Positions 1,045 through 60,445 of a stretch of DNA of 64,000 bases are shown in pieces. The translations under genes were made by a program, and so were the position numbers. Below the pieces are notes generated by a model that saw only the letters and a program-made list of their open reading frames with translations, was not told the DNA's origin and ran no database searches. Numbering within the stretch: the stretch's first letter is position 1; each line of letters begins with the position of its first letter. The stretch comes from Verrucomicrobiia bacterium (GTDB lineage Bacteria; Verrucomicrobiota; Verrucomicrobiia; Limisphaerales; Pedosphaeraceae), in contig DATAUW010000002.1 in NCBI GenBank assembly GCA_036268055.1, positions 28,124 through 92,123 of the forward strand, in the 5' to 3' direction.

Positions 1045-1290
1045 TGATTTTGACGCAGAGGCGCAGAGGCGCAGAGGCGCAGAGGAGGAAAGAATGGCGA
1101 GATAATGAAAGAAATGAGTTTTTCTTCATCCCATTTCTGTCCTCGCTTAATTACGAAATGAGATTTCACGAGCGCCAACAGCTTGTGATTTATACGTCTA
1201 AGCCACCTGCTGGAGTCTTCTCCCTCTCCGCCGCTTGCGGGGGAGAGGGTTGGGGAGAGGTGGTCCCGTTCACCCCATTTATGGATAAGG
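1045..1290. repeat. Composite repeat region, a degenerate MITE-like relative of the element at 53091-53204. It includes a tandem octamer (gcagaggc) of about 4.5 copies at 1054-1090 and an inverted repeat ccctctccgcc..ggggagaggg at 1215-1250.
   Basis: ttttgacgcagaggcgcagagg... matches the left TIR of the element at 53091. The internal ggaaagaa..atgag string is shared with it. It occupies the unusually long spacer between the alpha-E and transglutaminase genes. Confidence 0.45.
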
Positions 1291-3897: not shown

Positions 3898-4526
3898 CGG
3901 TGGAGGCGGGTCGCCAGAGTTTGGACACGACTCGCCCGCATCGAAGGAGAAGCGGCAAGGCGCTCAAAAAAACGCCGACACGATGTGGATTCAGCCAGGT
4001 TTAACGCTTCCGTCATAAGAGTTTCGCGAGCCAGGAACTCAAGGCCATTGAGCATTTCAAGTGCCACGGCCCGACTGACGCGATGAACATTGCCGCAAAC
4101 CATCCCAGGCATGCAGTGGCGGGCATTTTCCATACCCGGGAGCATAGTCATTTCTGAAAGCGACAGCAAATAAATTGCCGGAAAGATGGTCATAAATTTG
4201 CGCCATGTTCAAAAGAAAACAGGGACAGTGCGGAATGCGGAGTGTGGAGTGCGGAATTGTCGCACTAAAATCCAGTTTGATCGTTTGGGTGCACGAAGGA
4301 GGACAGAAAATCGCGATTTTGTGCGCGATTTGCGAACCGAAAGGCAAATTGCTTTATGGAATTTTGCGAGCCGTTTTGTTTAAGCAGAGGCGTAATGGTT
4401 TAAAGATTTTGGAAATGAGGGGGTTAAAATTTTGAGTCCGCGCGACAATCTGTCGCCATCAAAATGTTTTTTGCGGGCATGGGCGTTGCTAAATAAAGCT
4501 GGCCCATTAACAAAAACCAAAAAAAT

Positions 4527-5888: not shown

Positions 5889-5916
5889 TCGGCTAATTCA
5901 GTCCGTAGTGTGAACA

Positions 5917-5952
5917 CGCGGGCAGGACGTTCGTTCTGCCCGCGATTTTTTT
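5917..5952 (+). terminator. Rho-independent terminator of the 4527-5888 gene
   Basis: cgcgggcag / gacgttcgtt / ctgcccgcg stem-loop followed by tttttt. Confidence 0.55.
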
Positions 5953-5990
5953 GACCACAGATTGAACACGAATAAACCCGAAATCGAACG
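5951..5990 (+). repeat. Small dispersed intergenic repeat, family A (ccacagattgaacacgaataaacccgaaatcgaac). It is a divergent member.
   Basis: Shares the ccacgga/ccacaga-t-gaacacg-a core with the copies at 12235, 12945 and 33699 (reverse orientation). Confidence 0.4.
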
Positions 5991-6087
5991 TAAAACAGAC
6001 TTTGACGCGTATTGCTAAAAGCTAATGCAAAGTTTTCGAGCCAATCGTTTCAAGCATTCGATTCAGCCTAACGCCTTTTTCCTTTTG

Positions 6088-6120
6088 AACTGAAAACTGA
6101 AAACTTGAAACTGAAAACTC
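6088..6120. repeat. Tandem heptamer array (tgaaaac)(tgaaaac)(ttgaaac)(tgaaaac), upstream of gltX
   Basis: Direct reading of ctgaaaactgaaaacttgaaactgaaaactc. Similar arrays occur at 58087-58122, 37318-37345, 12193-12215 and 13505-13530. Confidence 0.5.
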
Positions 6121-6231
6121 TCTGCCGCGTTTACTCTGTGGCTGAAAAAAGAGCATTGAGTAACACTTGCCAGTCTGGGCGGAGACGCATTAGGGTGGGG
6201 AGAATTTGATTTTGGAAATTTTATATTCAAT

Positions 6232-7578
6232 ATGAAAGTACGGGTAAGATTTGCTCCGAGTCCGACGGGTTTTTTGCACATCGGCGGCGCGCGAACGGCG
6301 TTGTTCAACTGGCTGTATGCGCGGCATACGGGCGGGACATTTGTATTGCGCGTCGAAGACACTGACGCGGCGCGCAACTCACAGGAGGCGGTGGATGTCA
6401 TCCTGAACGGCTTGCGCTGGCTGGGACTCGATTGGGACGAAGGCCCGATCAGCGGCGACGTGACCGGGCCGAGCAAGGGGGATCGCGGGCCGTATTTTCA
6501 GAGCCAGCGAAGCGAGAATTATAAATTGCGTGTGGAGGCATTGTTGTCGCACGGACTCGCGTACGAGCACGAAGGCGCGGTGAAATTCAGGATGCAGCGC
6601 GAACCGGTCGTCATCCCGGATTTGGTCGTGGGAAATGTGACGCGTGAATTGACCGACCGTGAAAAACTCGACCCGGATTTTGTGATCGTGCGCTCGGATG
6701 GTCAGCCGGTGTTTCATCTCGTGAACGTCATTGATGATTTGGAAATGGGCATCACGCACGTAATCCGCGGCGAAGATCATTTGAGCAACACCGCGAAGCA
6801 CATTGCGTTGTTCCGTGCGTTCGGCATCGAGCCGCCGAAGTATGCGCACATTCCGCTTATTTTGAATATTGACGGGTCGAAGATGAGCAAGCGCGATAAG
6901 GGCGCTTCACTGATGACGTATCTGGACGAAGGTTACGCGCCCGAAGCGGTGGTGAATTATTTGTCGCTGCTGGGGTGGTCACCCAAGGGCAATCGCGAGA
7001 AAGTGCCGATCAAGGAAGTCGTCGAGCTTTTTGATCTACCACAAATTTTGCGTCACAATTCCCGATTCGATCTGAATAAATTGCACTGGCTCAACGGCGA
7101 ATACATTCGTGAGATGACGCTGGACCGGTTTCACGAATTGGCGGTGCACGCGCTGGGGCGCCTCGGAATTGATACGAACAAGTATCCGCTGGATTATGTG
7201 AAGGCAGCGCTCGATACGTGCAAGGCGAAGGTGAAATTATTTTCCGAAGTGCCCACGTTTGCGGATTTTTATTTCAAGGACGTGATTGAATTGGACGCGG
7301 AAATGTTGAAAAAAGATTTCCCCGCCGAATTGAAACCGAAGCTGAAACATTTGCGCGATGCGCTCTCCATGTTGCTGAAGTTTGACTCGGACACATTGAA
7401 CCGGACGACGAAGGAAGTGGCGGGCCAACTCGGAGTGGGCATCGGCGTGCTGGTGCATCCAACGCGACTGGCATGCACCGGGCGAACGGTCGGACCGAGC
7501 TTGTATCACTTGATGGAGGTACTGGGAAAAGAGCGGGTGGTGGCGCGGTTTGATTGGGTATTGGGGATGATGGGGTAA
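6232..7578 (+). CDS. gltX: Glutamate--tRNA ligase
   Basis: 448 aa. The HIGH motif (PTGFLHIGGAR) and the KMSKS motif (KMSKR) are present. Family-level similarity along the whole length. Confidence 0.95.
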   Translation: MKVRVRFAPSPTGFLHIGGARTALFNWLYARHTGGTFVLRVEDTDAARNSQEAVDVILNGLRWLGLDWDEGPISGDVTGPSKGDRGPYFQSQRSENYKLRVEALLSHGLAYEHEGAVKFRMQREPVVIPDLVVGNVTRELTDREKLDPDFVIVRSDGQPVFHLVNVIDDLEMGITHVIRGEDHLSNTAKHIALFRAFGIEPPKYAHIPLILNIDGSKMSKRDKGASLMTYLDEGYAPEAVVNYLSLLGWSPKGNREKVPIKEVVELFDLPQILRHNSRFDLNKLHWLNGEYIREMTLDRFHELAVHALGRLGIDTNKYPLDYVKAALDTCKAKVKLFSEVPTFADFYFKDVIELDAEMLKKDFPAELKPKLKHLRDALSMLLKFDSDTLNRTTKEVAGQLGVGIGVLVHPTRLACTGRTVGPSLYHLMEVLGKERVVARFDWVLGMMG

Positions 7579-7845: not shown

Positions 7846-10299
7846 ATGGCCAAGCGCTCCCACTCGAAGCCGCAAAAAGAGCCCAAGGCTGTCCCGTCTC
7901 AAAAGCGCGAACCGGCCCAAACGGATCCCGCAAATAACTTGGGACCGCTCGTCGCGGCTTTTCTGCTGACGTTCCTGATCACCAGAATCCCCCGCGAAGT
8001 GGTAAATGCCGGCCTGGATGCCGCCTGGGGTTACGTGCTGAATTTTGCGCATCAAAAGAACCTGCAGTTCGGAACGGACATCGTCTATACCTACGGTCCG
8101 CTGGGTTTTCTCGAGCAGGAATGGTTCGCGGGACCGGGTGAGGGACTGCGAATATTTTTCGCCTTCCTGCGCGGTTTCGGAATCGCCTACGGCGTTTGTC
8201 TCGTTGCCTGGCGAATGAGACTTGCGTGGAGATGTATTTTCCTCGGAGTCTTCATTCTGCTGCCCGCAACCGTTCACGCCAACCGAATCGAGCCTTTATT
8301 GGAAGTGGGCTTATTTTGCTGGGCCATGCTGAACCTGGTTGAACCAGACCAAAACAAAGGCGTATTTGCCATCGGTCTCATCGCCATCGCAACCATTGGC
8401 TCGCTGGGAAAGTTCACGTTCTTCTTGCTCGCGACTATGACCGTCGCGGTCGTCGCTTGGCATCTTGCGTTGCGCGGACGGCGAAAGTGGGGAATTGGCA
8501 TCGTGGTTGGTTACGTTTTGTCCTCGTTCCTTGGATGGATTTTGTTGCGTCAAAGCCCGCTGATATTGGGCGCTTATTTCAAAAACTCGCTGGCACTCTC
8601 GTTTGGTTATGAGGAAACCATGGGATGGAAAACGCCTTCCGAAATCTGGACCCCCGGCATTATCATGATGACGCTCGCGCTGGCGACTGCGCTCATCTAT
8701 TCCATCGCCGCTTATGACAAAACCGTTCGCCGGCCCGGATTACGCCCGACGCTGCTTTTCGGCTGGGTGGCTTGTTTCACGTTTCTGTTTTGGAAACACG
8801 GTTTCATCCGTCACAAAATGGATCTGTTCGCAACGTCCGTGCCAGTGACCGTGCTCGCATTGGACATCCTCCCAAGCCCATTCAAGGCAGCCCGGCTTTG
8901 GGCACGCGGTTGCGCCCTGGTTTGTTGCCTCGCCGCCGGTATTTTAATGACCACGCTGACGCCAGGATATTTTGGAGATTTCGTTTCCACCGATTTTCAT
9001 CTTCTCTCCGACAACATCAAGACACTGTTGAATCCCTCCGCCTACCTCGCCCGCATGAACCAGTCGCTCGACGCAGAACGCAATGGCGCGCAGTTGCCGC
9101 GCATCCGCCAAATCGTCGGTCAGGCTACGGTGGATGTGTTCGGCGAATATCAATCCTACGCGCTCTTCAATGGCCTAAATTACCGCCCGCGCCCCGATTT
9201 CCAAAGCTACTCGACTTATAATTCATCCCTGATGAAGGTGAACGAAAATCTATACAATTCCCCGGCGGCGCCGGAATTTGTATTATTTAATCTTGAAGCG
9301 ATTGATGCCCGTTTTCCTCCGTTGGAAGACGCGTATGTCCTGCGCGATTTGCTCATCAACTACGCGCCGATCGAATGCGAAGGCCGCTTCCTGCTGCTCA
9401 AGCGCAGCCAATCCAACACTCCTGAAATGTCGTTGCTCAAGGAAGGCACCGGCCACATCGGCGAAGCCATTAGTCTGAGCGAGTACAGCAACACCGATCT
9501 CTGGATGGAGATCTCGATGCAGCCAACCTTGCGCGGCCGTCTGCGGAAACTCTTCTTTAAACCGTCGGAAATTTATTTGAGCGTCTGGGGAAGTCAGCCC
9601 GCGTCGCAACCAGCCACATTTCGCGCGCCCGCGCCCATGCTTGCCGCCGGCTTCCTCGCAAGTCCATTTTTGCTCCGCGATTCCGACGTGGTGGATTTAT
9701 ACACGGGTGAAAACATTCACCGTCCCGGAGCCTTCGCGATCGAGGTGGAAAGGCGCGCCGAAAATTTCTGGCGCGAAGATTTCGATTATAAAATTTATCA
9801 AATCAAATCCAAACTCGGGCGCAGCGTTCCGGCAGAAATGGCCCGGTTGAAATTGCCGGGCTTTCAAATGATGCCGCAAATTGTATCTCCCGCCGGTCCG
9901 CCTGGCATCGCCGCCGTCGGCGGCAGCCCTGCGCTTTTGCTGCGCCCCGGTGGCTACATGGTTTTTAAGGTTCCCCAGGACGCACGAACTATTACGGGAA
10001 ATTTCGGATTTGCCGAGCCTGCCTACGTGCAAGGCTCGACCGAGGGTGCCGAGTTTCGGGTTGAAGAAGTTACTAGGGATGGCGCCTCCCATCTACTCTA
10101 TAGTCAATTCCTTTCACCACGAATCCGCGCGGAAGACCGCGGCCTGAAACATTTCTCTGTTCCTCTCCCGGCTCAGAACGATGAAACAATTGTGTTCCGT
10201 TCCATTTCTGCTACCAATTCCAATCCCCAATGGGACCTGACCTGCTGGTCAGAAATCAGATTCGAAACGAACCAGCCTCCGACCGGAACCCAACCATGA
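7846..10299 (+). CDS. Large polytopic membrane protein of unknown function. About 10 TM helices in the N-terminal half and a large C-terminal extracytoplasmic domain. Possibly a GT-C-like glycosyltransferase.
   Basis: 817 aa. Multiple hydrophobic segments at residues ~35-380. No confidently recognised catalytic motif. Confidence 0.55.
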   Translation: MAKRSHSKPQKEPKAVPSQKREPAQTDPANNLGPLVAAFLLTFLITRIPREVVNAGLDAAWGYVLNFAHQKNLQFGTDIVYTYGPLGFLEQEWFAGPGEGLRIFFAFLRGFGIAYGVCLVAWRMRLAWRCIFLGVFILLPATVHANRIEPLLEVGLFCWAMLNLVEPDQNKGVFAIGLIAIATIGSLGKFTFFLLATMTVAVVAWHLALRGRRKWGIGIVVGYVLSSFLGWILLRQSPLILGAYFKNSLALSFGYEETMGWKTPSEIWTPGIIMMTLALATALIYSIAAYDKTVRRPGLRPTLLFGWVACFTFLFWKHGFIRHKMDLFATSVPVTVLALDILPSPFKAARLWARGCALVCCLAAGILMTTLTPGYFGDFVSTDFHLLSDNIKTLLNPSAYLARMNQSLDAERNGAQLPRIRQIVGQATVDVFGEYQSYALFNGLNYRPRPDFQSYSTYNSSLMKVNENLYNSPAAPEFVLFNLEAIDARFPPLEDAYVLRDLLINYAPIECEGRFLLLKRSQSNTPEMSLLKEGTGHIGEAISLSEYSNTDLWMEISMQPTLRGRLRKLFFKPSEIYLSVWGSQPASQPATFRAPAPMLAAGFLASPFLLRDSDVVDLYTGENIHRPGAFAIEVERRAENFWREDFDYKIYQIKSKLGRSVPAEMARLKLPGFQMMPQIVSPAGPPGIAAVGGSPALLLRPGGYMVFKVPQDARTITGNFGFAEPAYVQGSTEGAEFRVEEVTRDGASHLLYSQFLSPRIRAEDRGLKHFSVPLPAQNDETIVFRSISATNSNPQWDLTCWSEIRFETNQPPTGTQP

Positions 10300-12156: not shown

Positions 12157-12234
12157 AAATATTCCGCGTCAGGCGGACGAAGATTTGCGGGAAAAGGCGG
12201 AAGTTTCAAGGTTTGAGTTCGTCGGGAGAAAACT

Positions 12235-12272
12235 TTCAGCCACGGATTGAACACGGAAAAAACACCGATTGG
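12235..12272 (+). repeat. Dispersed intergenic repeat, family A (ttcagccacggattgaacacggaaaaaacaccgattgg), upstream of pgsA
   Basis: Near-identical to 12945-12983. The two copies flank pgsA in the same orientation. Confidence 0.5.
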
Positions 12273-12355
12273 AAATTAAACAGGATCGCTCCAATAGTTT
12301 TGCGGGTGAGGAGAAGATTTGACAATCGGCGCGACGGGTCAAGACTAGCTGAGAC

Positions 12356-12943
12356 ATGACGACGGCGAATAAAGTCACGATCGTGCGGATTCTGCTGGTG
12401 CCCGTGTTTATCGTGCAGGTGCTCTATTATTTTAAAAATGGCGATGAGGTGCATCGCTTTGCCGGGCTATTGTGCTTTGCGATTGCGGCGGTCCTTGACG
12501 GGGTGGATGGCTATATCGCGCGGCGCTACAATCAACGAAGTGAGTTGGGCGCGATCCTCGATCCGCTGGGCGACAAATTGCTTTTGGTATCGGGGGTGGT
12601 GTTGCTGAGTTTGCGGAGTTGCACCCTGACGCGGGTTCCGCTTTGGGTCACGGGAACGATCATCAGCCGCGATGTGGTGCTGGTGGCGGGAATGGTGTTG
12701 ATCCAGATGATTTGCGGGAAGGTGATTGTGCGCCCGCGAATGGTGGGCAAGATCGCGACGGTCTTGCAAATGGTGATGGTGTTATGGCGGCTGTTGAAAT
12801 GGAATGATCGCTGGTCGGAATATTTGGCGGCCGCGGCGGCGATTCTGACGGGCGTATCGGGATTATTATATGTGTGGGACGGAATGCGGCAGTTGAGCGC
12901 GAGTCCGAGAAGTCTGCCATCGCCGGAGCAGGGCAAGAAATAA
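12356..12943 (+). CDS. pgsA: CDP-diacylglycerol--glycerol-3-phosphate 3-phosphatidyltransferase (CDP-alcohol phosphatidyltransferase family)
   Basis: 195 aa. The CDP-OH phosphotransferase motif DGVDGYIARRYNQRSELGAILDPLGDK is present. Multiple TM helices. Confidence 0.85.
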   Translation: MTTANKVTIVRILLVPVFIVQVLYYFKNGDEVHRFAGLLCFAIAAVLDGVDGYIARRYNQRSELGAILDPLGDKLLLVSGVVLLSLRSCTLTRVPLWVTGTIISRDVVLVAGMVLIQMICGKVIVRPRMVGKIATVLQMVMVLWRLLKWNDRWSEYLAAAAAILTGVSGLLYVWDGMRQLSASPRSLPSPEQGKK

Positions 12944-12944
12944 T

Positions 12945-12983
12945 TTTCAGCCACGGATGAAACACGGATTAAACACGAATGGG
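12945..12983 (+). repeat. Dispersed intergenic repeat, family A (ttttcagccacggatgaaacacggattaaacacgaatgg), downstream of pgsA
   Basis: Direct-repeat partner of 12235-12272. Confidence 0.5.
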
Positions 12984-13025
12984 AAAAGATTGATGTTAAG
13001 GAGTTGATGGAACAAAATAATTTAT

Positions 13026-13499: not shown

Positions 13500-13649
13500 T
13501 CAAAGAATTTCAAGTTTGGAGTTTGAAAATGCGGCGTGTGAACGCGGTTGGTGAAGCGATTTCCGCTACTCGCGGTTTGACACTCCTTTGCCTGGCAATT
13601 ATAACTGCGGCTCGAAGTGGTCAAGTTAACCAAATAACAAAATAATATT

Positions 13650-32064: not shown

Positions 32065-32574
32065 TCAAGTCGTCGCTAAATTGCCCAGCTTATTGGACAT
32101 CTGTTTGATCTCGTCGCGCAACAAGGCGGCCTGCTCAAAATTTTCGTCGTCCACGGCCTTGGAAAGTTTTTTCTGCAACGTCTTCAAACGCTCGGTCAAC
32201 TCGCGGCTCTGTTGAAGCGATTGCGGCACCTTGCCGACGTGGTGCGTGCCCTTGTGCATGGTCTTGAGCAACCCTTCGAGGCCCTCCGCGAAGGTCGCAT
32301 AACATTCCGCGCAACCGAGGCGTCCGGCTTTTTTGAAATCCGCTTGCGTGAAACCGCACTTGGGACATTTCAAATCCGCGCCGCCGGAGGCCGCTTCCAA
32401 TTCCTGCGAAGCGCCGAGGCCGAGCAAAAGATCGGCAAGCGAAAAGCCGGTGGGATCGTTGACGCCTTTTTGCTTGGCGCATTCTTCGCACAAATCTACC
32501 TTCTGCATCTTGTCGCCCTGAATCTGGGTCAGATGCACGGTGGCTTCTTTTTCTTTGCAAACACAACACAACAT
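32065..32574 (-). CDS. mcsA: Protein arginine kinase activator McsA (two CxxC zinc ribbons plus a UVR domain)
   Basis: 169 aa. CCVC..CEEC and CPKC..CAEC pairs. A C-terminal UVR-like helix (AALLRDEIKQM). Confidence 0.8.
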   Translation of the reverse strand: MLCCVCKEKEATVHLTQIQGDKMQKVDLCEECAKQKGVNDPTGFSLADLLLGLGASQELEAASGGADLKCPKCGFTQADFKKAGRLGCAECYATFAEGLEGLLKTMHKGTHHVGKVPQSLQQSRELTERLKTLQKKLSKAVDDENFEQAALLRDEIKQMSNKLGNLATT

Positions 32575-32578
32575 ACGG

Positions 32579-32743
32579 TCAATTTTTATCGCTTAACAAC
32601 TGCGCCAAATCTATTCCGGCGGGATTGTTCAATCCCTTTTTCCGGGCGCATTCTTCGCAGAAATCTTTCGCCCGCGCGGTGTCTCCCTGCACCTGGCTCA
32701 AGTGCACGGACGCTTCCTTCTCTTTACAGACGCAACACAGCAT
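32579..32743 (-). CDS. Mini-McsA. A 54-aa stand-alone zinc-ribbon paralogue of the McsA N-terminus.
   Basis: Manual translation gives MLCCVCKEKEASVHLSQVQGDTARAKDFCEECARKKGLNNPAGIDLAQLLSDKN. This is near-identical to McsA residues 1-50 (MLCCVCKEKEATVHLTQIQGD...CEECAKQKGVNDPTGFSLADLL). Its stop lies 4 nt before the mcsA start. It is below the ORF-track size cut-off. Confidence 0.5.
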   Translation of the reverse strand: MLCCVCKEKEASVHLSQVQGDTARAKDFCEECARKKGLNNPAGIDLAQLLSDKN

Positions 32744-32754
32744 ATCCTTGATAT

Positions 32755-33621
32755 TTATATCGGCTCACCGGAGCTATTAGTCAAGGTGTGGTAGGCCTTA
32801 ATCAGCTTTTGAGTCACGGGACCAGGCTTGCCGGTGCCGATGACGCGGCCATCAATTTTCACCACGGAAATCACTTCCGCACCGGTGCCGGTCAGGAAGC
32901 ATTCTTCCGCATTGAACATATCGTAACGCGTCAGGTTCGGCTCGTTTACGGTCAAACCAGCTTCGACCGCGAGATCCATCACCGCTTTGCGGGTGATGCC
33001 GTAAAGCGCGCCTGCCGAAAGCGGCGGGGTGGACAAAGTATTGCCATTGAGGATGAAGATATTGTCGCCAGTGCATTCCGCGACGTAACCCTCGGCGTTG
33101 AGCATGATGGCTTCTTCGACGCCGCCATTGTTCGCCTCGATTTTCGCGAGGATGTTGTTGAGATAATTAAGCGACTTGATCGCCGGATTGAGCGCGCTGT
33201 GCAGGTTGCGCGTTGTGGCCACGGTGATGATGTCCAGTCCGCGTTTGTAGAACGATTCAGGATAAAGCTGGATTTTGTCCGCGATGATGATGACGGACGG
33301 ATTTTTGCAGCGGTTGGGATTCAGTCCGAGCGTGCCCACGCCGCGTGTCACGACGAGGCGGATATAGCAATCACGCAATTTATTTCTGCGGCAGGTCTCG
33401 ACGACGGCTTTCATCATCTCGGCATGCGAGAGAGGAATGGTGAGCAGCAGTGCCTTGGCCGAGCAAAAAAGCCGGTCAATGTGTTCTTTCAAACGAAAGA
33501 CGCGGCCATTGTAAGCGCGAATTCCTTCAAAGATTCCATCGCCATAAAGCAAGCCGTGATCGAACACGGACACCTTGGCGTCCTTCTCTGCCACATATTT
33601 TCCGTCGAGATATATTTTCAT
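32755..33621 (-). CDS. ilvE: Branched-chain amino acid aminotransferase (class IV PLP enzyme)
   Basis: 288 aa. Family-level similarity (DHGLLYGDGIFEGIRAY, catalytic Lys region). Confidence 0.9.
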   Translation of the reverse strand: MKIYLDGKYVAEKDAKVSVFDHGLLYGDGIFEGIRAYNGRVFRLKEHIDRLFCSAKALLLTIPLSHAEMMKAVVETCRRNKLRDCYIRLVVTRGVGTLGLNPNRCKNPSVIIIADKIQLYPESFYKRGLDIITVATTRNLHSALNPAIKSLNYLNNILAKIEANNGGVEEAIMLNAEGYVAECTGDNIFILNGNTLSTPPLSAGALYGITRKAVMDLAVEAGLTVNEPNLTRYDMFNAEECFLTGTGAEVISVVKIDGRVIGTGKPGPVTQKLIKAYHTLTNSSGEPI

Positions 33622-33698: not shown

Positions 33699-33775
33699 GA
33701 ATCCGTGTTCCTCCGTGTTCCATCCGTGGCCAAAATTTCTTTCCCCCAGTGGCCGTCCGCAAGGATCTTCGTGGT
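33699..33775. repeat. Junction of two dispersed repeat families. A family A copy in reverse orientation (gaatccgtgttcctccgtgttccatccgtggccaaaa) lies immediately next to the family B core (tttcccccagtggccgtccgcaaggatct).
   Basis: Sequence matches to 12945-12983 (reverse complement) and to 53155-53185. Confidence 0.45.
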
Positions 33776-37273: not shown

Positions 37274-37381
37274 GTATGTGAATTATCTGTAACTCAAAAG
37301 TTTTTACAAAGCTTTCTTGCTCCTGCGGAAAACTTGAAACTGAACGCTTTAAACTTTCCGCAATTCGGATTAACTACATCC

Positions 37382-50596: not shown

Positions 50597-50775
50597 TTTC
50601 CCCTAACTGAAGTTAGGGATTAATGAGAAGTGTTGGGCAAGTAGGTGAGGGTTGGTTCCATAAGCGGATTTCTTTCGTCCCTTCGGGACTTGATTTGCAA
50701 TGGACGCAAACCCAGCAATAAATTGCTGGGCAAATATCTGCCGTCCCTGCGGGACTTCGGACGGGGAGCGTCAGC
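50597..50775 (+). repeat. Structured ~180-nt repeat element, copy 1 (candidate ncRNA or MITE). It contains a 7-bp-stem/UGAA-loop hairpin, two gtccc-N3/4-gggac hairpins, and the 20-nt perfect palindrome cccagcaataaattgctggg.
   Basis: About 80% identical to 60270-60445. Both copies lie in convergent intergenic spacers. Confidence 0.55.
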
Positions 50776-53090: not shown

Positions 53091-53204
53091 TTTGACGCAG
53101 AGGCGCAGAGCGGGGAAAGAAATGAGACGAGGATGAAGGGATATTATTCATGACTCTTTTTCCCAGTGGCCGTCCGCAAGGACCTCTGTGCCTCTGCGTC
53201 AAAA
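53091..53204. mobile_element. MITE-like non-autonomous element (~114 bp) with 20-nt perfect TIRs tttgacgcagaggcgcagag / ctctgtgcctctgcgtcaaa
   Basis: TIRs read directly from the sequence. The internal core tttcccagtggccgtccgcaagga recurs at 33745. The left TIR plus an octamer expansion recurs at 1048-1090. No coding capacity. Confidence 0.5.
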
Positions 53205-57587: not shown

Positions 57588-58004
57588 TTAATGGTGGCAA
57601 CCGCAGCCGGAACCGCAACCGCCGCCGGATTCGAGATCGCTTTCTTCGGGGACGCGGCCAAGTTCAAAGGTTTTGCTGACGTATTGGGAAACGGTTTGTT
57701 GAACTTTCTGCATGCCTTCCTGGGCGTCGAGGAAACCGCGGGCGATGGGGTTTTTCAGAAAAGCGTCGCGGAGGCGGTCGAAATCTTCGACTTCGGCATC
57801 GGTGAGTTGGGCGCCGGAGTGTTGCTTTTGCTGGAGCGCTTGGCCTTTCATCATGAGGGCGTCGTATTGGCCGCGAACGGCGTCGTCAGCGGAGAAGGCA
57901 TCGAGCTTCTGCCGCATGGCGCGAACCTCGGGTTCGTCCAGGATGGCCTGGCAGAGTTCGCGGGTTTTGGAGATGAGAGCGGAGGCTTCGATTTGAGTTT
58001 CCAT
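57588..58004 (-). CDS. YlbF/YmcA-family protein (RicA/RicF-like) with a C-terminal Cys cluster
   Basis: 138-aa helical protein with YlbF/YmcA-like length and pattern. The terminal GGGCGSGCGCHH suggests a metal or Fe-S ligand site. Confidence 0.5.
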   Translation of the reverse strand: METQIEASALISKTRELCQAILDEPEVRAMRQKLDAFSADDAVRGQYDALMMKGQALQQKQHSGAQLTDAEVEDFDRLRDAFLKNPIARGFLDAQEGMQKVQQTVSQYVSKTFELGRVPEESDLESGGGCGSGCGCHH

Positions 58005-58086
58005 AATTTAAATTGTTACCAGGTTTTGGACTTTGTCACTGGGTTTAATACACCACAGGCGGGTCATAAATGCAAATGGCAATGTG

Positions 58087-58122
58087 GCGGGGAAGTTTCA
58101 AGTTTGAAGTTTCAAGTTTTCA
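58087..58122. repeat. Heptamer array (minus-strand reading: tgaaaac ttgaaac ttcaaac ttgaaac), upstream of sixA
   Basis: Direct reading. Related to the 6088-6120 array. Confidence 0.45.
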
Positions 58123-58286
58123 GTTGGGACGGCGGAGCGGCAGTTCCGCCCTACCGCGCGGTGGATTTCCGAATGCGGTGGTAAAGATCGAGAGTTGATA
58201 GGTGCGGAAATGAGTTGAGGCAGGTTGCGTGTGGGATTGACTTCTGTTGCGTGGAGACGGAATGATTGCGGGAACACAATTCACCC

Positions 58287-58793
58287 ATGGAACTTTATCT
58301 CTTGCGACACGGCATTGCGGAAGATCGAAACCCGGAGGCGCCGAATGACGACAGTCTGCGGCGTTTGACGGCCGAGGGGCGGACGAAGATGCGCCGCGCC
58401 ACGGGGGGAATGAAGTCACTGGAATTGGAATTTGACTTGATCCTGGCGAGTCCCTACCTGCGCACGAAAGAGACGGCGAAGATCGTGGCGGAAGGGCTGG
58501 GGTGCGAGGAGTTGATGGAGGTGTCGGGGGCGCTGGCATCCGAAGGGGGCAATCCCCGGGTGTTGATTGAGGAATTGAAGCGTGACTACGGCGAGTGTGA
58601 GAGCCTTTTGGTGGTGGGGCACGAGCCTTATTTGAGCCGGTTGATCGGGCGGCTGATTTCGGGGGATGACCGGTCGCTGGTGACGATGAAAAAGGGGGCG
58701 TTGTGCAAATTGGCAGTGGGCGACTTGTCCTATGGACGTTGCGCCTGCCTGGAATGGCTGCTGACGTCATCACAGTTGCGCCAAGCAGGTTGA
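58287..58793 (+). CDS. sixA: Phosphohistidine phosphatase SixA
   Basis: MELYLLRHGIAE... is the histidine-phosphatase RHG motif. About 165 aa. Confidence 0.8.
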   Translation: MELYLLRHGIAEDRNPEAPNDDSLRRLTAEGRTKMRRATGGMKSLELEFDLILASPYLRTKETAKIVAEGLGCEELMEVSGALASEGGNPRVLIEELKRDYGECESLLVVGHEPYLSRLIGRLISGDDRSLVTMKKGALCKLAVGDLSYGRCACLEWLLTSSQLRQAG

Positions 58794-60035: not shown

Positions 60036-60269
60036 GTTGCCGTATGAAAGCGAAAACTGAAAAGCGAAAAACTACTGACGCCATTGAGATTGTTGACCGG
60101 ATGGCAGGGGACAGTCCCGAACTAGCCAATTCGACGAACGGGCACAGAGAGGAAAACGAGATTAGGGATTGTTGGAATATGGATTGGGTGAAATTTTTGT
60201 TGGTTCGGTTTTGTTCCAAGGAACGGGCCCGCCTCGCTTTGCTCGGGATAGATTTTTTAAGGAGCGGCA

Positions 60270-60445
60270 TTTCCCCCGGCTGAAGCCGGGGGTTAATGAG
60301 AAGCGATTGGTTTTTGCGGGCGATGGAAGAGTGGCGGCGGAATTTCTTTCGTCCCTGCGGGACTTAATTTATGACGGATGGGAACCCAGCAATAAATTGC
60401 TGGGCTAAGTTCTGTCGTCCCTGAGGGGACTTTGGACGGCCGAGC
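60270..60445 (+). repeat. Structured ~180-nt repeat element, copy 2 (candidate ncRNA or MITE)
   Basis: Paralogue of 50597-50775. The 5' hairpin ccccggc-tgaa-gccgggg retains pairing through 3 compensatory changes relative to copy 1. Confidence 0.55.

What the first reader, a model, noticed from the sequence alone, without database searches (positions are those of the whole stretch)
6088..6120. Recurrent tandem TGAAAAC/TTGAAAC heptamer arrays in promoter-proximal intergenic regions
Four tandem heptamers lie upstream of gltX (6088-6120). Closely related arrays occur upstream of sixA (58087-58122, opposite strand), upstream of the mnmE leader (37318-37345, embedded in a gcggaaa...tttccgc inverted repeat), in the purK/pgsA divergent region (12193-12215) and after bcp (13505-13530). 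A strict 7-bp register places the repeats on alternating helical faces. This is typical of arrays of regulator half-sites, UP-element-like A/T phasing, or slipped-strand phase-variable tracts. The recurrence across unrelated promoters suggests a global DNA-binding protein or a sigma-factor recognition feature.
Basis: seen in the sequence. Interest (0 to 1): 0.5.

Follow-up and report, generated by a model that had tools for sequence, protein, structure and literature searches.

The report
Heptamer simple-sequence repeats, not regulator sites
The short 7-base tandem repeats upstream of gltX and a few other genes are real. They look like the heptanucleotide simple-sequence repeats already known to litter bacterial intergenic DNA, not conserved binding sites for a global regulator or sigma factor.

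Summary
The window comes from a Pedosphaera-like Verrucomicrobiota metagenome contig. It holds two clear heptamer arrays, 6083-6119 (+) and 58089-58130 (-), and two shorter degenerate ones, 37326-37353 (+) and 13508-13528 (-). A marginal array lies at 60050-70. The purK/pgsA site is not in 7-bp register. All share the unit CT[T/G][G/A/C]AAA. Period-7 arrays with at least 3 copies number 4, against 0.16 in shuffles.

Three arrays lie 20-49 bp upstream of the -35 hexamer of sigma-70-type core promoters that are conserved in relatives. The arrays themselves are not conserved. All three are missing in other Pedosphaera-like genomes. The gltX array is also missing in a strain with 96.8% nucleotide identity, where homology stops 11 bp before the -35. 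Orientation and distance vary, and no RNA structure is predicted.

In about 1.9 Mb from 160 other loci, period 7 is the commonest non-coding tandem period, with many different units. One related array shows a clean two-unit indel between strains.

This matches the known class of heptanucleotide long SSRs, such as cyanobacterial STRR, Xanthomonas GGGAATC and Beggiatoaceae TAACTGA. The global-regulator or sigma-factor reading is not supported. Interest is low.

The parts
6083..6119 (+). Array A1: TTTTGAA CTGAAAA CTGAAAA CTTGAAA CTGAAAA. It lies in the spacer between the terminator of the upstream gene and the gltX promoter. Its last unit ends 49 bp before the -35 hexamer and 113 nt before the ATG.
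   Evidence: TRF period 7, 4.6 copies, score 50. Scores 21/21 over three units. Units listed. Absent in strain L082 and in relatives L083, L084 and L086.
58089..58130 (-). Array A4: (GTCCCAA) CTGAAAA CTTGAAA CTTCAAA CTTGAAA CTTCCCC. It lies in the divergent region between the YlbF-family gene and sixA. Its last good unit ends 20 bp before the conserved TTGCAT block.
   Evidence: TRF 58093-58125, 3.9-4.7 copies. Scores 21/21. Identical in the 97.3% strain L173 and absent in relative L174. Flanking genes.
37326..37353 (+). Array A3 (degenerate): CGGAAAA CTTGAAA CTGAACG CTTTAAA. It lies in the divergent region 30 nt upstream of an 85-aa ORF that precedes mnmE, and is flanked by GCGGAAA / TTTCCGC 7-nt inverted arms.
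   Evidence: Scores 18/21. Not reported by TRF. Sequence. Only a 100% identical copy was available for comparison.
13508..13528 (-). Array A2 (three units): TTTCAAA CTCCAAA CTTGAAA. It starts 9 nt after the bcp stop codon and ends 48 bp upstream of the -35 of the second AhpC/TSA gene. Its orientation is opposite to that gene.
   Evidence: Scores 19/21. Identical in the 98.4% strain L175. Absent in L176 and in P. parvula L086.
60050..60070 (+). Marginal array A5: GCGAAAA CTGAAAA GCGAAAA, just after the stop codon of the DUF2147 gene.
   Evidence: Scores 17/21. TRF 60047-60070, period 7, 3.4 copies, score 34. Sequence.
12193..12215 (-). It holds two GTTTCAAG / GTTTGAG units 8 nt apart. It is not a heptamer array in register and lies next to a CACGGAT 11-bp repeat element.
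   Evidence: Below 17/21. Sequence. The neighbouring repeat is family D10.
6167..6196 (+). gltX core promoter (inferred): TTGCCA-N18-TAGGGT.
   Evidence: Coordinates. The pattern TTGCCA-N17/18-TAnnnT recurs upstream of gltX in L001, L003, L005, L008, L083, L084 and L086. Homology with strain L082 starts at 6156.
13577..13605 (+). Core promoter (inferred) of the second AhpC/TSA gene: TTGACA-N17-TATAAC.
   Evidence: Conserved in L086 and L176.
58045..58075 (-). Conserved promoter-like block upstream of the YlbF-family gene: TTGCAT-N19-TATTAA.
   Evidence: The block TTTGCA..CCTGTGGTGTATTA is conserved in L174. The assignment as a promoter is an inference.
5917..5951 (+). Intrinsic-terminator-like hairpin plus T-run after the upstream 453-aa gene. 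It places A1 outside that transcript.
   Evidence: 12-pair stem with 9 GC pairs, followed by ATTTTTTT.

Best explanation
The arrays are heptanucleotide simple-sequence repeats, of the class called long SSRs or STRR-like repeats. They are short head-to-tail runs of a 7-bp unit. They most likely arose and are kept in register by replication slippage or unequal exchange in A/T-rich, non-coding spacer DNA. In this lineage the favoured unit family is CT[T/G][G/A/C]AAA, which can also be written AAACTKV.

They sit in intergenic spacers because a 7-bp period cannot be tolerated in reading frames. Spacers upstream of promoters are the least constrained DNA available. The arrays are young, lineage-specific additions placed beside conserved sigma-70-type core promoters, not parts of those promoters. 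After a few point mutations the units are no longer identical, so the arrays become stable. This explains why they are unchanged between strains at 97-98% identity.

Any effect on the neighbouring promoters, through A-tracts or local DNA flexibility, would be incidental. No such effect was shown here.

Shown here: the existence, register and non-coding location of the arrays; their position upstream of conserved -35/-10 pairs; their absence in relatives; the slippage signature in a related array; and the dominance of period 7 in other genomes. Inferred: the slippage origin and the lack of a sequence-specific function.
For: 1. Period-7 arrays exceed chance: 4 against 0.16 in shuffles.
2. The phenomenon is general. 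In 80 gltX loci from many phyla plus the window (about 1.3 Mb), period 7 is the commonest tandem period with at least 3 copies: 58 TRF rows (overlapping rows are counted separately), against 27 for period 6 and 8 for period 8. The units are very diverse, for example AACATCC, CTCACTG, GATTGCG and AAACTTC. With crude gene calls over 1.95 Mb, 39% of period-7 arrays are intergenic, against 9% intergenic DNA overall and 11% for period 6.
3. A1 is absent in a 96.8%-identical strain, where homology starts at 6156, 11 bp before the -35. It is also absent in L083, L084 and P. parvula, although TTGCCA-N18-TAnnnT is conserved.
4. A4 is absent in L174 although the TTTGCA...TGTATTA block is conserved.
5. 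A2 is absent in L176 and L086 although TTGACA-N17-TATAA is conserved.
6. The relative at 90% gltX amino-acid identity has a similar array (AGTTTAA, 4.6 copies) at a non-orthologous place, L083 9166-9197. The lineage therefore keeps producing this unit family at new sites.
7. Slippage signature: near-identical strains L134 and L135/L140 differ by exactly 14 nt, two units, inside an AAAACTC array.
8. Orientation is mixed and distances to the -35 are 20, 48 and 49 bp.
9. The literature describes heptanucleotides as the most abundant long-SSR class, with polymerase slippage proposed as the cause (Mrazek 2007, as summarised in PMC4679880, and PMC4692102).
Against: The same unit family recurs at 4-5 unlinked loci in 64 kb. 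In about 1.8 Mb of other genomes it occurs about 9 times, which predicts about 0.3 per 64 kb. The consensus came from this window, so that comparison is biased. Pure random slippage does not by itself explain why one unit family is favoured.

Variation between units is concentrated at positions 3-4, while AAACT stays fixed. This could reflect selection.

Three arrays lie between about -58 and -120 of inferred promoters, a zone where activators often bind.

No copy-number change was seen in the two arrays that could be compared between strains.

Only 64 kb of a 715-kb contig was available, so positional statistics are weak.
Confidence: 0.65

Rival explanations
1. The arrays are binding sites for a lineage-specific DNA-binding protein, such as an activator or a nucleoid-associated protein. 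It would read AAACT every 7 bp and act from about -60 to -120 on several sigma-70 promoters.
For: The same unit family occurs at 4-5 loci. AAACT is invariant while positions 3-4 vary. A1 and A2 end 49 and 48 bp upstream of their -35 hexamers. A2 and A4 are unchanged between strains at 97-98% identity.
Against: Arrays are not conserved at orthologous promoters in any other genus-level relative. A1 is missing in a same-species strain that keeps the same promoter. A2 has the opposite orientation to A1 at the same distance, and A4 lies at a different distance. Two-unit matches are not enriched outside the arrays. A 7-bp step puts successive sites 240 degrees apart, which is awkward for cooperative binding on one face of the helix.
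Confidence: 0.13
2. The arrays are SSRs in origin but are kept because their A-tracts act as UP-element-like or DNA-structure modulators of the adjacent promoters.
For: The arrays are 71-86% A+T in a 55% G+C genome. If the conserved TTGCAT block is the -35, A4 abuts the UP-element zone at about -42 to -85.
Against: A1 and A2 end about 49 bp upstream of the -35, near -84, which is outside the -40 to -60 UP zone. A 7-bp phase does not add up to planar curvature. Relatives keep the promoters without arrays.
Confidence: 0.1
3. The arrays are phase-variable contingency tracts whose copy number switches expression of the neighbouring genes.
For: The tracts are tandem and lie near promoters. A two-unit indel occurs in a related perfect array in other Verrucomicrobia.
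Against: The units are imperfect, which suppresses slippage. A2 and A4 have the same copy number in strains at 98.4% and 97.3% identity. The arrays lie outside the -35/-10 spacer and outside coding sequence. The neighbouring genes are housekeeping: gltX, peroxiredoxin and mnmE.
Confidence: 0.04
4. The arrays act at the RNA level, as 5'-leader targets of a post-transcriptional regulator. This was proposed for TAACTGA repeats in Beggiatoaceae.
For: The unit AAACTGA differs by one base from TAACTGA. A1, A3 and A4 are in sense orientation relative to a downstream gene.
Against: A1, A2 and A4 lie upstream of the conserved -35 hexamers. A1 also lies downstream of a terminator, so it is probably not in the downstream mRNAs. 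The arrays are 30-113 nt from start codons, whereas the TAACTGA repeats lie within a few nt. The folds are no better than shuffles, with z = -1.0 and -0.2.
Confidence: 0.04
5. The arrays are stacked -35 elements (TGAAAC) for an ECF-type sigma factor.
For: TGAAAC is a typical ECF -35 core (own knowledge; B. subtilis SigW recognises TGAAAC-N16-CGTA). A1 contains TGAAAC-N16-CGT. Pedosphaera relatives encode ECF-like sigma proteins (L086 gene 18482-19975).
Against: Only one of the five arrays has a CGT at the right spacing, and this is the only such match in the whole window. Tandem -35 copies are not a known promoter architecture. The arrays are absent in relatives.
Confidence: 0.04

Closest known systems
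Heptanucleotide long simple-sequence repeats (LSSRs) of prokaryotes (Mrazek, Guo and Shah 2007, as summarised in PMC4679880 and PMC4692102)
   Same: Tandem 7-bp units, a few copies per array, intergenic, several arrays per genome, unit sequence differs by lineage, poorly conserved between relatives. Period 7 was also the dominant non-coding period in my own survey.
   Different: The unit family CTKVAAA in a Pedosphaera-like Verrucomicrobiota genome was not mentioned in the three papers I opened. The arrays here are short (3-5 units) and imperfect.
TAACTGA direct repeats of marine Beggiatoaceae, cyanobacteria and some Bacteroidetes (MacGregor 2015, PMC4679880)
   Same: Heptamer, A-rich, contains a stop codon (TGA), 2-6 copies, intergenic, often 'split' by related 7-mers. 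The unit AAACTGA is one base from TAACTGA.
   Different: TAACTGA sets mostly end within a few nt of the start codon in forward orientation, and number 169 sets per genome. The arrays here lie 30-113 nt upstream, beyond the inferred -35, in mixed orientation. AAACTGA doublets are rare in the Beggiatoaceae genome.
GGGAATC and GGGGA(T/C)T heptamer repeats of Xanthomonas and Nostoc (Rehm 2015, PMC4692102), and cyanobacterial STRR heptamers (Calothrix PCC 7601)
   Same: A genome-specific favoured heptamer, intergenic, heterogeneous units, extensive length and sequence variation between related species. Some occur as inverted pairs, as I saw in L047 and L134.
   Different: Those units are G-rich and can form quadruplexes. 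The units here are A/T-rich and cannot. No inverted partner occurs in this window.
UP elements of sigma-70 promoters
   Same: A/T-rich DNA upstream of a -35 hexamer.
   Different: UP elements occupy about -40 to -60. A1 and A2 end near -84, and only A4 overlaps the zone.
Phase-variable SSR contingency loci (Haemophilus, Neisseria, Moraxella)
   Same: Tandem short repeats near promoters that can change by slippage.
   Different: Those are long perfect tracts, located in coding sequence or in the promoter spacer or 5' UTR of surface and restriction-modification genes, and they vary between isolates. None of this is seen here.

Membership tests
Heptanucleotide long SSR / STRR-like repeats | Head-to-tail tandem copies of a 7-bp unit, more than chance gives | tested here: met
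   TRF period 7 with at least 3 copies: 4 arrays against 0.16 in 100 shuffles.
Heptanucleotide long SSR / STRR-like repeats | Non-coding (intergenic) location | tested here: met
   All arrays fall between called genes. In the pooled survey 39% of period-7 arrays are intergenic, against a 9% background.
Heptanucleotide long SSR / STRR-like repeats | The same or related unit recurs at several unlinked loci of one genome, and differs between lineages | tested here: met
   4-5 loci with CTKVAAA. A second family, TGCGGAR, occurs at 4229-4257. Other genomes favour other units.
Heptanucleotide long SSR / STRR-like repeats | Rapid turnover: presence or absence, or copy-number change, between relatives | tested here: met
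   A1 absent in a 96.8% strain. A1, A2 and A4 absent in genus-level relatives. A 2-unit indel in a related array. However, A2 and A4 are unchanged in strains at 97-98% identity.
TAACTGA repeat system (MacGregor 2015) | Unit TAACTGA | tested here: not met
   The units are CTGAAAA (= AAACTGA), CTTGAAA and CTTCAAA.
TAACTGA repeat system (MacGregor 2015) | Forward orientation ending within a few nt of a start codon | tested here: not met
   Distances to the start codon are 113, 85, 30 and 122 nt. One array is in reverse orientation.
Transcription-factor binding-site array (regulon operator) | Conserved at orthologous promoters in related genomes | tested here: not met
   Absent upstream of gltX, the YlbF-family gene and the second peroxiredoxin gene in relatives with conserved core promoters.
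Transcription-factor binding-site array (regulon operator) | Fixed position and orientation relative to the promoter | tested here: not met
   Gaps to the -35 of 49, 48 and 20 bp. A2 is inverted relative to A1.
Transcription-factor binding-site array (regulon operator) | A protein binds it specifically | not testable with these tools
   Needs pull-down, DAP-seq or ChIP.
UP element | A/T-rich tract at about -40 to -60 of a sigma-70 promoter | tested here: not met
   A1 and A2 end about 49 bp upstream of the -35. Only A4 overlaps the zone. Transcription start sites are inferred, not mapped.
Phase-variable contingency SSR | Perfect repeats whose number differs between closely related strains | tested here: not met
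   Imperfect units. A4 is identical in L173 at 97.3% identity and A2 is identical in L175 at 98.4%.
ECF sigma promoter | -35 GAAAC followed at 16-17 nt by CGT | tested here: not met
   Present only at A1 (6107-6130). Absent at A2 to A5.
Structured RNA or terminator hairpin | A fold more stable than shuffles, or an inverted partner array | tested here: not met
   z = -1.04 and -0.24. No Rfam family matches at the arrays.

The most novel reading that the evidence does not exclude
CTKVAAA arrays, and perhaps heptamer arrays in general (their near-twin is TAACTGA in Beggiatoaceae and cyanobacteria), could be landing pads for an uncharacterised protein that reads DNA in 7-bp steps. That protein would act from about -60 to -120 on housekeeping promoters. 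The favoured unit in each lineage would then reflect co-evolution with the protein, not neutral slippage. The recurrence of AAACT-type heptamer arrays in Acidobacteriota (L047), Fibrobacterota (L068) and several Verrucomicrobiota (L004, L036, L083, L134) is compatible with this.
Probability: 0.1. Interest if true: 0.6.

Novelty: new member of a known kind. Interest (0 to 1): 0.2.

Why it matters
It matters little for the biology of gltX, sixA or mnmE. Their conserved promoters do not include the arrays.

The result is useful as a caution. Short 7-bp tandem arrays are a common, fast-evolving feature of bacterial intergenic DNA, and recurrence alone does not make them regulatory motifs. Why 7 bp is the favoured period, and why each lineage favours particular units, remains unanswered. 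This window adds a Verrucomicrobiota example with the unit family CTKVAAA, but it does not make that question easier to test.

Tried and rejected
1. Rfam scan of the whole window. Nothing matched at the arrays; there were only two Acido-Lenti-1 hits elsewhere.
2. RNA folding of the A1 and A4 regions. The folds are no better than shuffles, so a hairpin or terminator role was rejected for this window. Inverted pairs of similar arrays do exist elsewhere (L047, L134).
3. Enrichment of heptamer arrays directly upstream of gltX across phyla. Arrays of unrelated units lie next to gltX in L016, L047, L048, L055 and L078. With 58 period-7 TRF rows across about 1.3 Mb (roughly 1,100 intergenic regions, by my estimate) and 80 gltX loci, about 4 are expected by chance, so this was dropped.
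4. Conserved flanks or a mobile element. The arrays have no shared flanking sequence and are not part of the dispersed repeat families found by the repeat finder. A1 and the marginal purK/pgsA site do each have a CACGGAT 11-bp repeat element within about 10-90 nt.
5. ECF-type promoter. Only A1 fits.
6. The metagenome scan with the YlbF-family protein returned no relative closer than 70%. It served only as extra background sequence.
7. Exact-protein look-ups for bcp and mnmE returned only 100% identical copies, which are uninformative for variation. The A3 (mnmE-side) array could therefore not be compared with any diverged strain.
The promoter assignment rests on cross-species conservation instead.

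Full report
**Source of the window**

The gltX protein encoded at 6232-7578 is found identically on JGI metagenome contig Ga0376694_0000005 (715 kb, sample 3300036823). Its closest named relatives are Pedosphaera sp. MAGs and Pedosphaera parvula, at 84-86% amino-acid identity. The best species representatives in GTDB are Limisphaerales/Verrucomicrobiota MAGs at 72-77%. G+C is about 55% throughout.

Reading the five sites and running Tandem Repeats Finder gives two clear heptamer arrays:
- 6088-6119: 4.6 copies, score 50.
- 58093-58125: 3.9-4.7 copies, score 47.

From these two arrays I derived the unit CT[T/G][G/A/C]AAA and scored three consecutive units along both strands. Four loci reach 18 of 21 or better, where dinucleotide shuffles give 0.1 windows:
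- 6083-6117, plus strand.
- 13508-13528, minus strand.
- 37326-37353, plus strand.
- 58089-58130, minus strand.

The first and last of these are the source of the consensus, so only the middle two are independent matches.

- A marginal fifth site is 60050-60070, at 17/21.
- The purK/pgsA site (12193-12215) does not reach 17/21. Its two GTTT units are 8 nt apart, so it is not in 7-bp register.

An unbiased test gives the same answer. TRF finds four period-7 arrays with at least three copies in the window, against a mean of 0.16 and a maximum of 1 in 100 shuffles. One of the four, 4229-4257, has a different unit (TGCGGAR).

The units are listed:
- A1: TTTTGAA CTGAAAA CTGAAAA CTTGAAA CTGAAAA
- A4: CTGAAAA CTTGAAA CTTCAAA CTTGAAA CTTCCCC
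- A3: CGGAAAA CTTGAAA CTGAACG CTTTAAA
- A2: TTTCAAA CTCCAAA CTTGAAA

**Gene context**

- A1 lies after a strong terminator-like hairpin (5917-5944 plus a T-run) and before gltX.
- A2 starts 9 nt after the stop codon of a peroxiredoxin (bcp) gene and precedes a second AhpC/TSA gene.
- A3 is in the divergent region between a BadF/SIS-domain gene and an 85-aa ORF that precedes mnmE.
- A4 is in the divergent region between a YlbF/YmcA-family gene (57588-58004, minus strand) and sixA (58266-58793, plus strand; His_Phos_1). It is closer to the YlbF-family gene than to sixA.

**Promoters and conservation**

Upstream of gltX, all Pedosphaera-like and several more distant Verrucomicrobiota loci share TTGCCA-N17/18-TAnnnT. 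In the window this is 6167-6172 and 6191-6196. A1 ends 49 bp upstream of that -35.

A contig from a sister strain (L082) is 96.8% identical to the window over 3,070 nt. The homology begins at window position 6156, 11 bp before the -35. Upstream of that point the two sequences are unrelated, and L082 has no array. L083 (90% GltX identity), L084 (87%) and P. parvula (L086) also lack an array there.

For the second peroxiredoxin gene, TTGACA-N17-TATAAC (13577-13605) is conserved in P. parvula and in Pedosphaera sp. L176. A2, which ends 48 bp upstream of the -35, is absent from both. It is identical in a 98.4% strain, L175.

For the YlbF-family gene, a block TTTGCA...CCTGTGGTGTATTA (58075-58045) is conserved in L174 (81% protein identity). 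A4, whose last good unit ends 20 bp upstream of this block, is absent in L174. It is identical in the 97.3% strain L173.

Three arrays therefore sit next to conserved sigma-70-type core promoters. They are not part of the conserved architecture, their spacing differs, and A2 is inverted relative to A1.

A3 could not be compared, because only a 100% identical copy was found.

**Is this special to these promoters or general?**

I ran TRF on the 80 gltX loci fetched from GTDB genomes of many phyla, together with the window (about 1.3 Mb). Period 7 was the commonest tandem period with at least three copies: 58 TRF rows (overlapping rows counted separately), against 27 for period 6, 20 for period 9 and 8 for period 8. 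The units were very diverse (AACATCC, CTCACTG, GATTGCG, TTGGAAC, AAACTTC and others).

In a second set of 80 metagenome loci (0.56 Mb), period 7 was again prominent, with 21 rows. Period 6 had more there, with 47. In the pooled set only 11% of period-6 arrays are intergenic, so most are probably coding.

With crude gene calls over 1.95 Mb, 39% of period-7 arrays were intergenic, against 9% intergenic DNA overall.

AAACT-type units also occur elsewhere:
- An inverted pair of CTTCAAA arrays between a gene end and gltX in a Vicinamibacterales genome, L047.
- CTCCAAA/CTTCAAA/CTGAAAA in a Chitinispirillia genome, L068.
- TTTCAAA in Prosthecobacter, L036.
- AGTTTAA, 4.6 copies, at a non-orthologous site about 800 bp upstream of gltX in the 90% relative L083.

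Outside the window the CTKVAAA pattern reaches 18/21 at about 9 arrays in about 1.8 Mb. This predicts about 0.3 per 64 kb, against 4 observed. This genome therefore looks enriched for the unit family, with the caveat that the consensus came from here.

**Slippage signature**

Three near-identical contigs (L134, L135, L140) differ by exactly 14 nt, two units, inside an AAAACTC array that forms one arm of an inverted pair. This is the expected product of slipped-strand mispairing in a perfect heptamer tract. The window's arrays have non-identical units. This fits their stability between strains at 97-98% identity.

**Other readings tested**

- RNA folds of the A1 and A4 regions are no better than shuffles, with z = -1.04 and -0.24.
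- No Rfam family covers the arrays.
- An ECF-type TGAAAC-N16-CGT arrangement occurs only at A1, and it is the only such match in the window.
- Two-unit matches with up to three mismatches are not enriched once the arrays themselves are set aside: 15 against 7.9 +/- 3.3.
- The arrays are not pieces of the longer dispersed repeats of the window.
- A 7-bp step is about 240 degrees of helical rotation, so the units lie on three faces, not two. A-tracts at this spacing do not sum to planar bending (established DNA geometry).

**Comparison with what is known**

According to MacGregor (PMC4679880) and Rehm et al. (PMC4692102), Mrazek and co-workers found in 2007 that heptanucleotide repeats are the most abundant long-SSR class in most prokaryotic genomes. 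They suggested that about 7 nt may be the length that interacts with the polymerase and favours slippage.

Described families include:
- Three tandem heptanucleotides in Calothrix PCC 7601.
- GGGAATC in Xanthomonas and GGGGA(T/C)T in Nostoc. These are intergenic and heterogeneous, vary strongly between related species, and are sometimes in inverted pairs.
- TAACTGA in marine Beggiatoaceae, cyanobacteria and some Bacteroidetes. There are 169 sets of 2-6 copies, mostly ending within a few nt of a start codon in forward orientation, and they have been proposed as targets of a post-transcriptional regulator.

The main unit here, AAACTGA, is one base from TAACTGA. The positional rule is not met, however. 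The arrays here are 30-113 nt from start codons and lie upstream of the inferred -35 hexamers. AAACTGA repeats are also rare in that Beggiatoaceae genome.

I therefore file the arrays as a new member of the general heptanucleotide-SSR class (a new unit family in a Verrucomicrobiota lineage), not as TAACTGA-type elements.

**Verdict**

The favoured interpretation, a global DNA-binding protein or a sigma-factor feature, is not supported.

The best explanation, at confidence about 0.65, is that the arrays are slippage-generated heptanucleotide simple-sequence repeats. They accumulate in unconstrained spacers next to promoters and turn over quickly between relatives.

One point is unexplained: why a single unit family recurs within a genome. 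This leaves a modest probability, about 0.1-0.15, for a lineage-specific protein that reads the repeat. Testing it needs genome-wide positions, mapped transcription start sites and binding experiments.

Interest is low, at 0.2.

Noticed in passing
window 5955-5998, 12226-12275, 12937-12986, 33701-33728 (minus strand); also L082 about 320-340 and L009 just upstream of gltX: A different repeat family. It has two to three direct copies of CACGRAT separated by a 4-bp A/T-rich spacer, giving an 11-bp period as in a Pho box. It is found in five intergenic regions. CACGRAT-N4-CACGRA gives 6 matches against 0.61 expected. It recurs upstream of gltX in a sister strain and in a relative. It looks more like a genuine regulator-binding array than the heptamers do.
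   Followed up: partly
window 50711-50756 and 60385-60431 (within 50597-50753 / 60270-60427): Two Rfam Acido-Lenti-1 RNA matches (47.9 and 46.4 bits; gathering threshold 37). Each is embedded in a copy of a dispersed repeat of about 160 nt, with 76-84% identity between copies.
   Followed up: no
window 4229-4257: A second heptamer array with an unrelated unit: TGCGGAA TGCGGAG TGTGGAG TGCGGAA. It lies 36 nt upstream of a 99-aa minus-strand ORF. Similar units (TCCGCAA, 5.1 copies; TGCGGAG, 4.1 copies) occur in the related metagenome loci L148 and L149.
   Followed up: partly
window 5889-6155 compared with L082 1-348: The segment between the Alpha-E/ATP-grasp/transglutaminase cluster and the gltX promoter varies between strains. 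Homology with a 96.8% strain stops at 6156. The 90% relative L083 carries different small ORFs there.
   Followed up: partly
L134 8646-8742, L135 17069-17151, L140 16661-16743: An inverted pair of heptamer arrays (GAGTTTT... / ...AAAACTC) forms a long hairpin between genes. One arm differs by exactly two units (14 nt) between near-identical strains.
   Followed up: yes
L047 9822-9965: In a Vicinamibacterales genome, an inverted pair of CTTCAAA arrays flanks about 70 nt between the stop codon of the upstream gene and gltX. It could act as a terminator or form a cruciform.
   Followed up: no
L002 about 9780-9840 (upstream of gltX): Five tandem copies of a 12-nt unit, CTCGATTGTTGC, in a Limisphaerales MAG.
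   Followed up: no
window 1054-1091 and 53096-53117: A perfect octamer array, (CGCAGAGG)4, with a second short copy 52 kb away.
   Followed up: no
window 32447-32758: Two adjacent 143-nt copies at 73% identity (start-to-start spacing 169 nt) in the region of the ORFs at 32065-32574 (-) and 32755-33621 (-).
   Followed up: no
window 33738-33773 and 53155-53190: A 36-nt dispersed repeat, TCTTTCCCCCAGTGGCCGTCCGCAAGGATC..., at 86% identity. One copy lies directly beside the CACGGAT element at 33701-33728.
   Followed up: no
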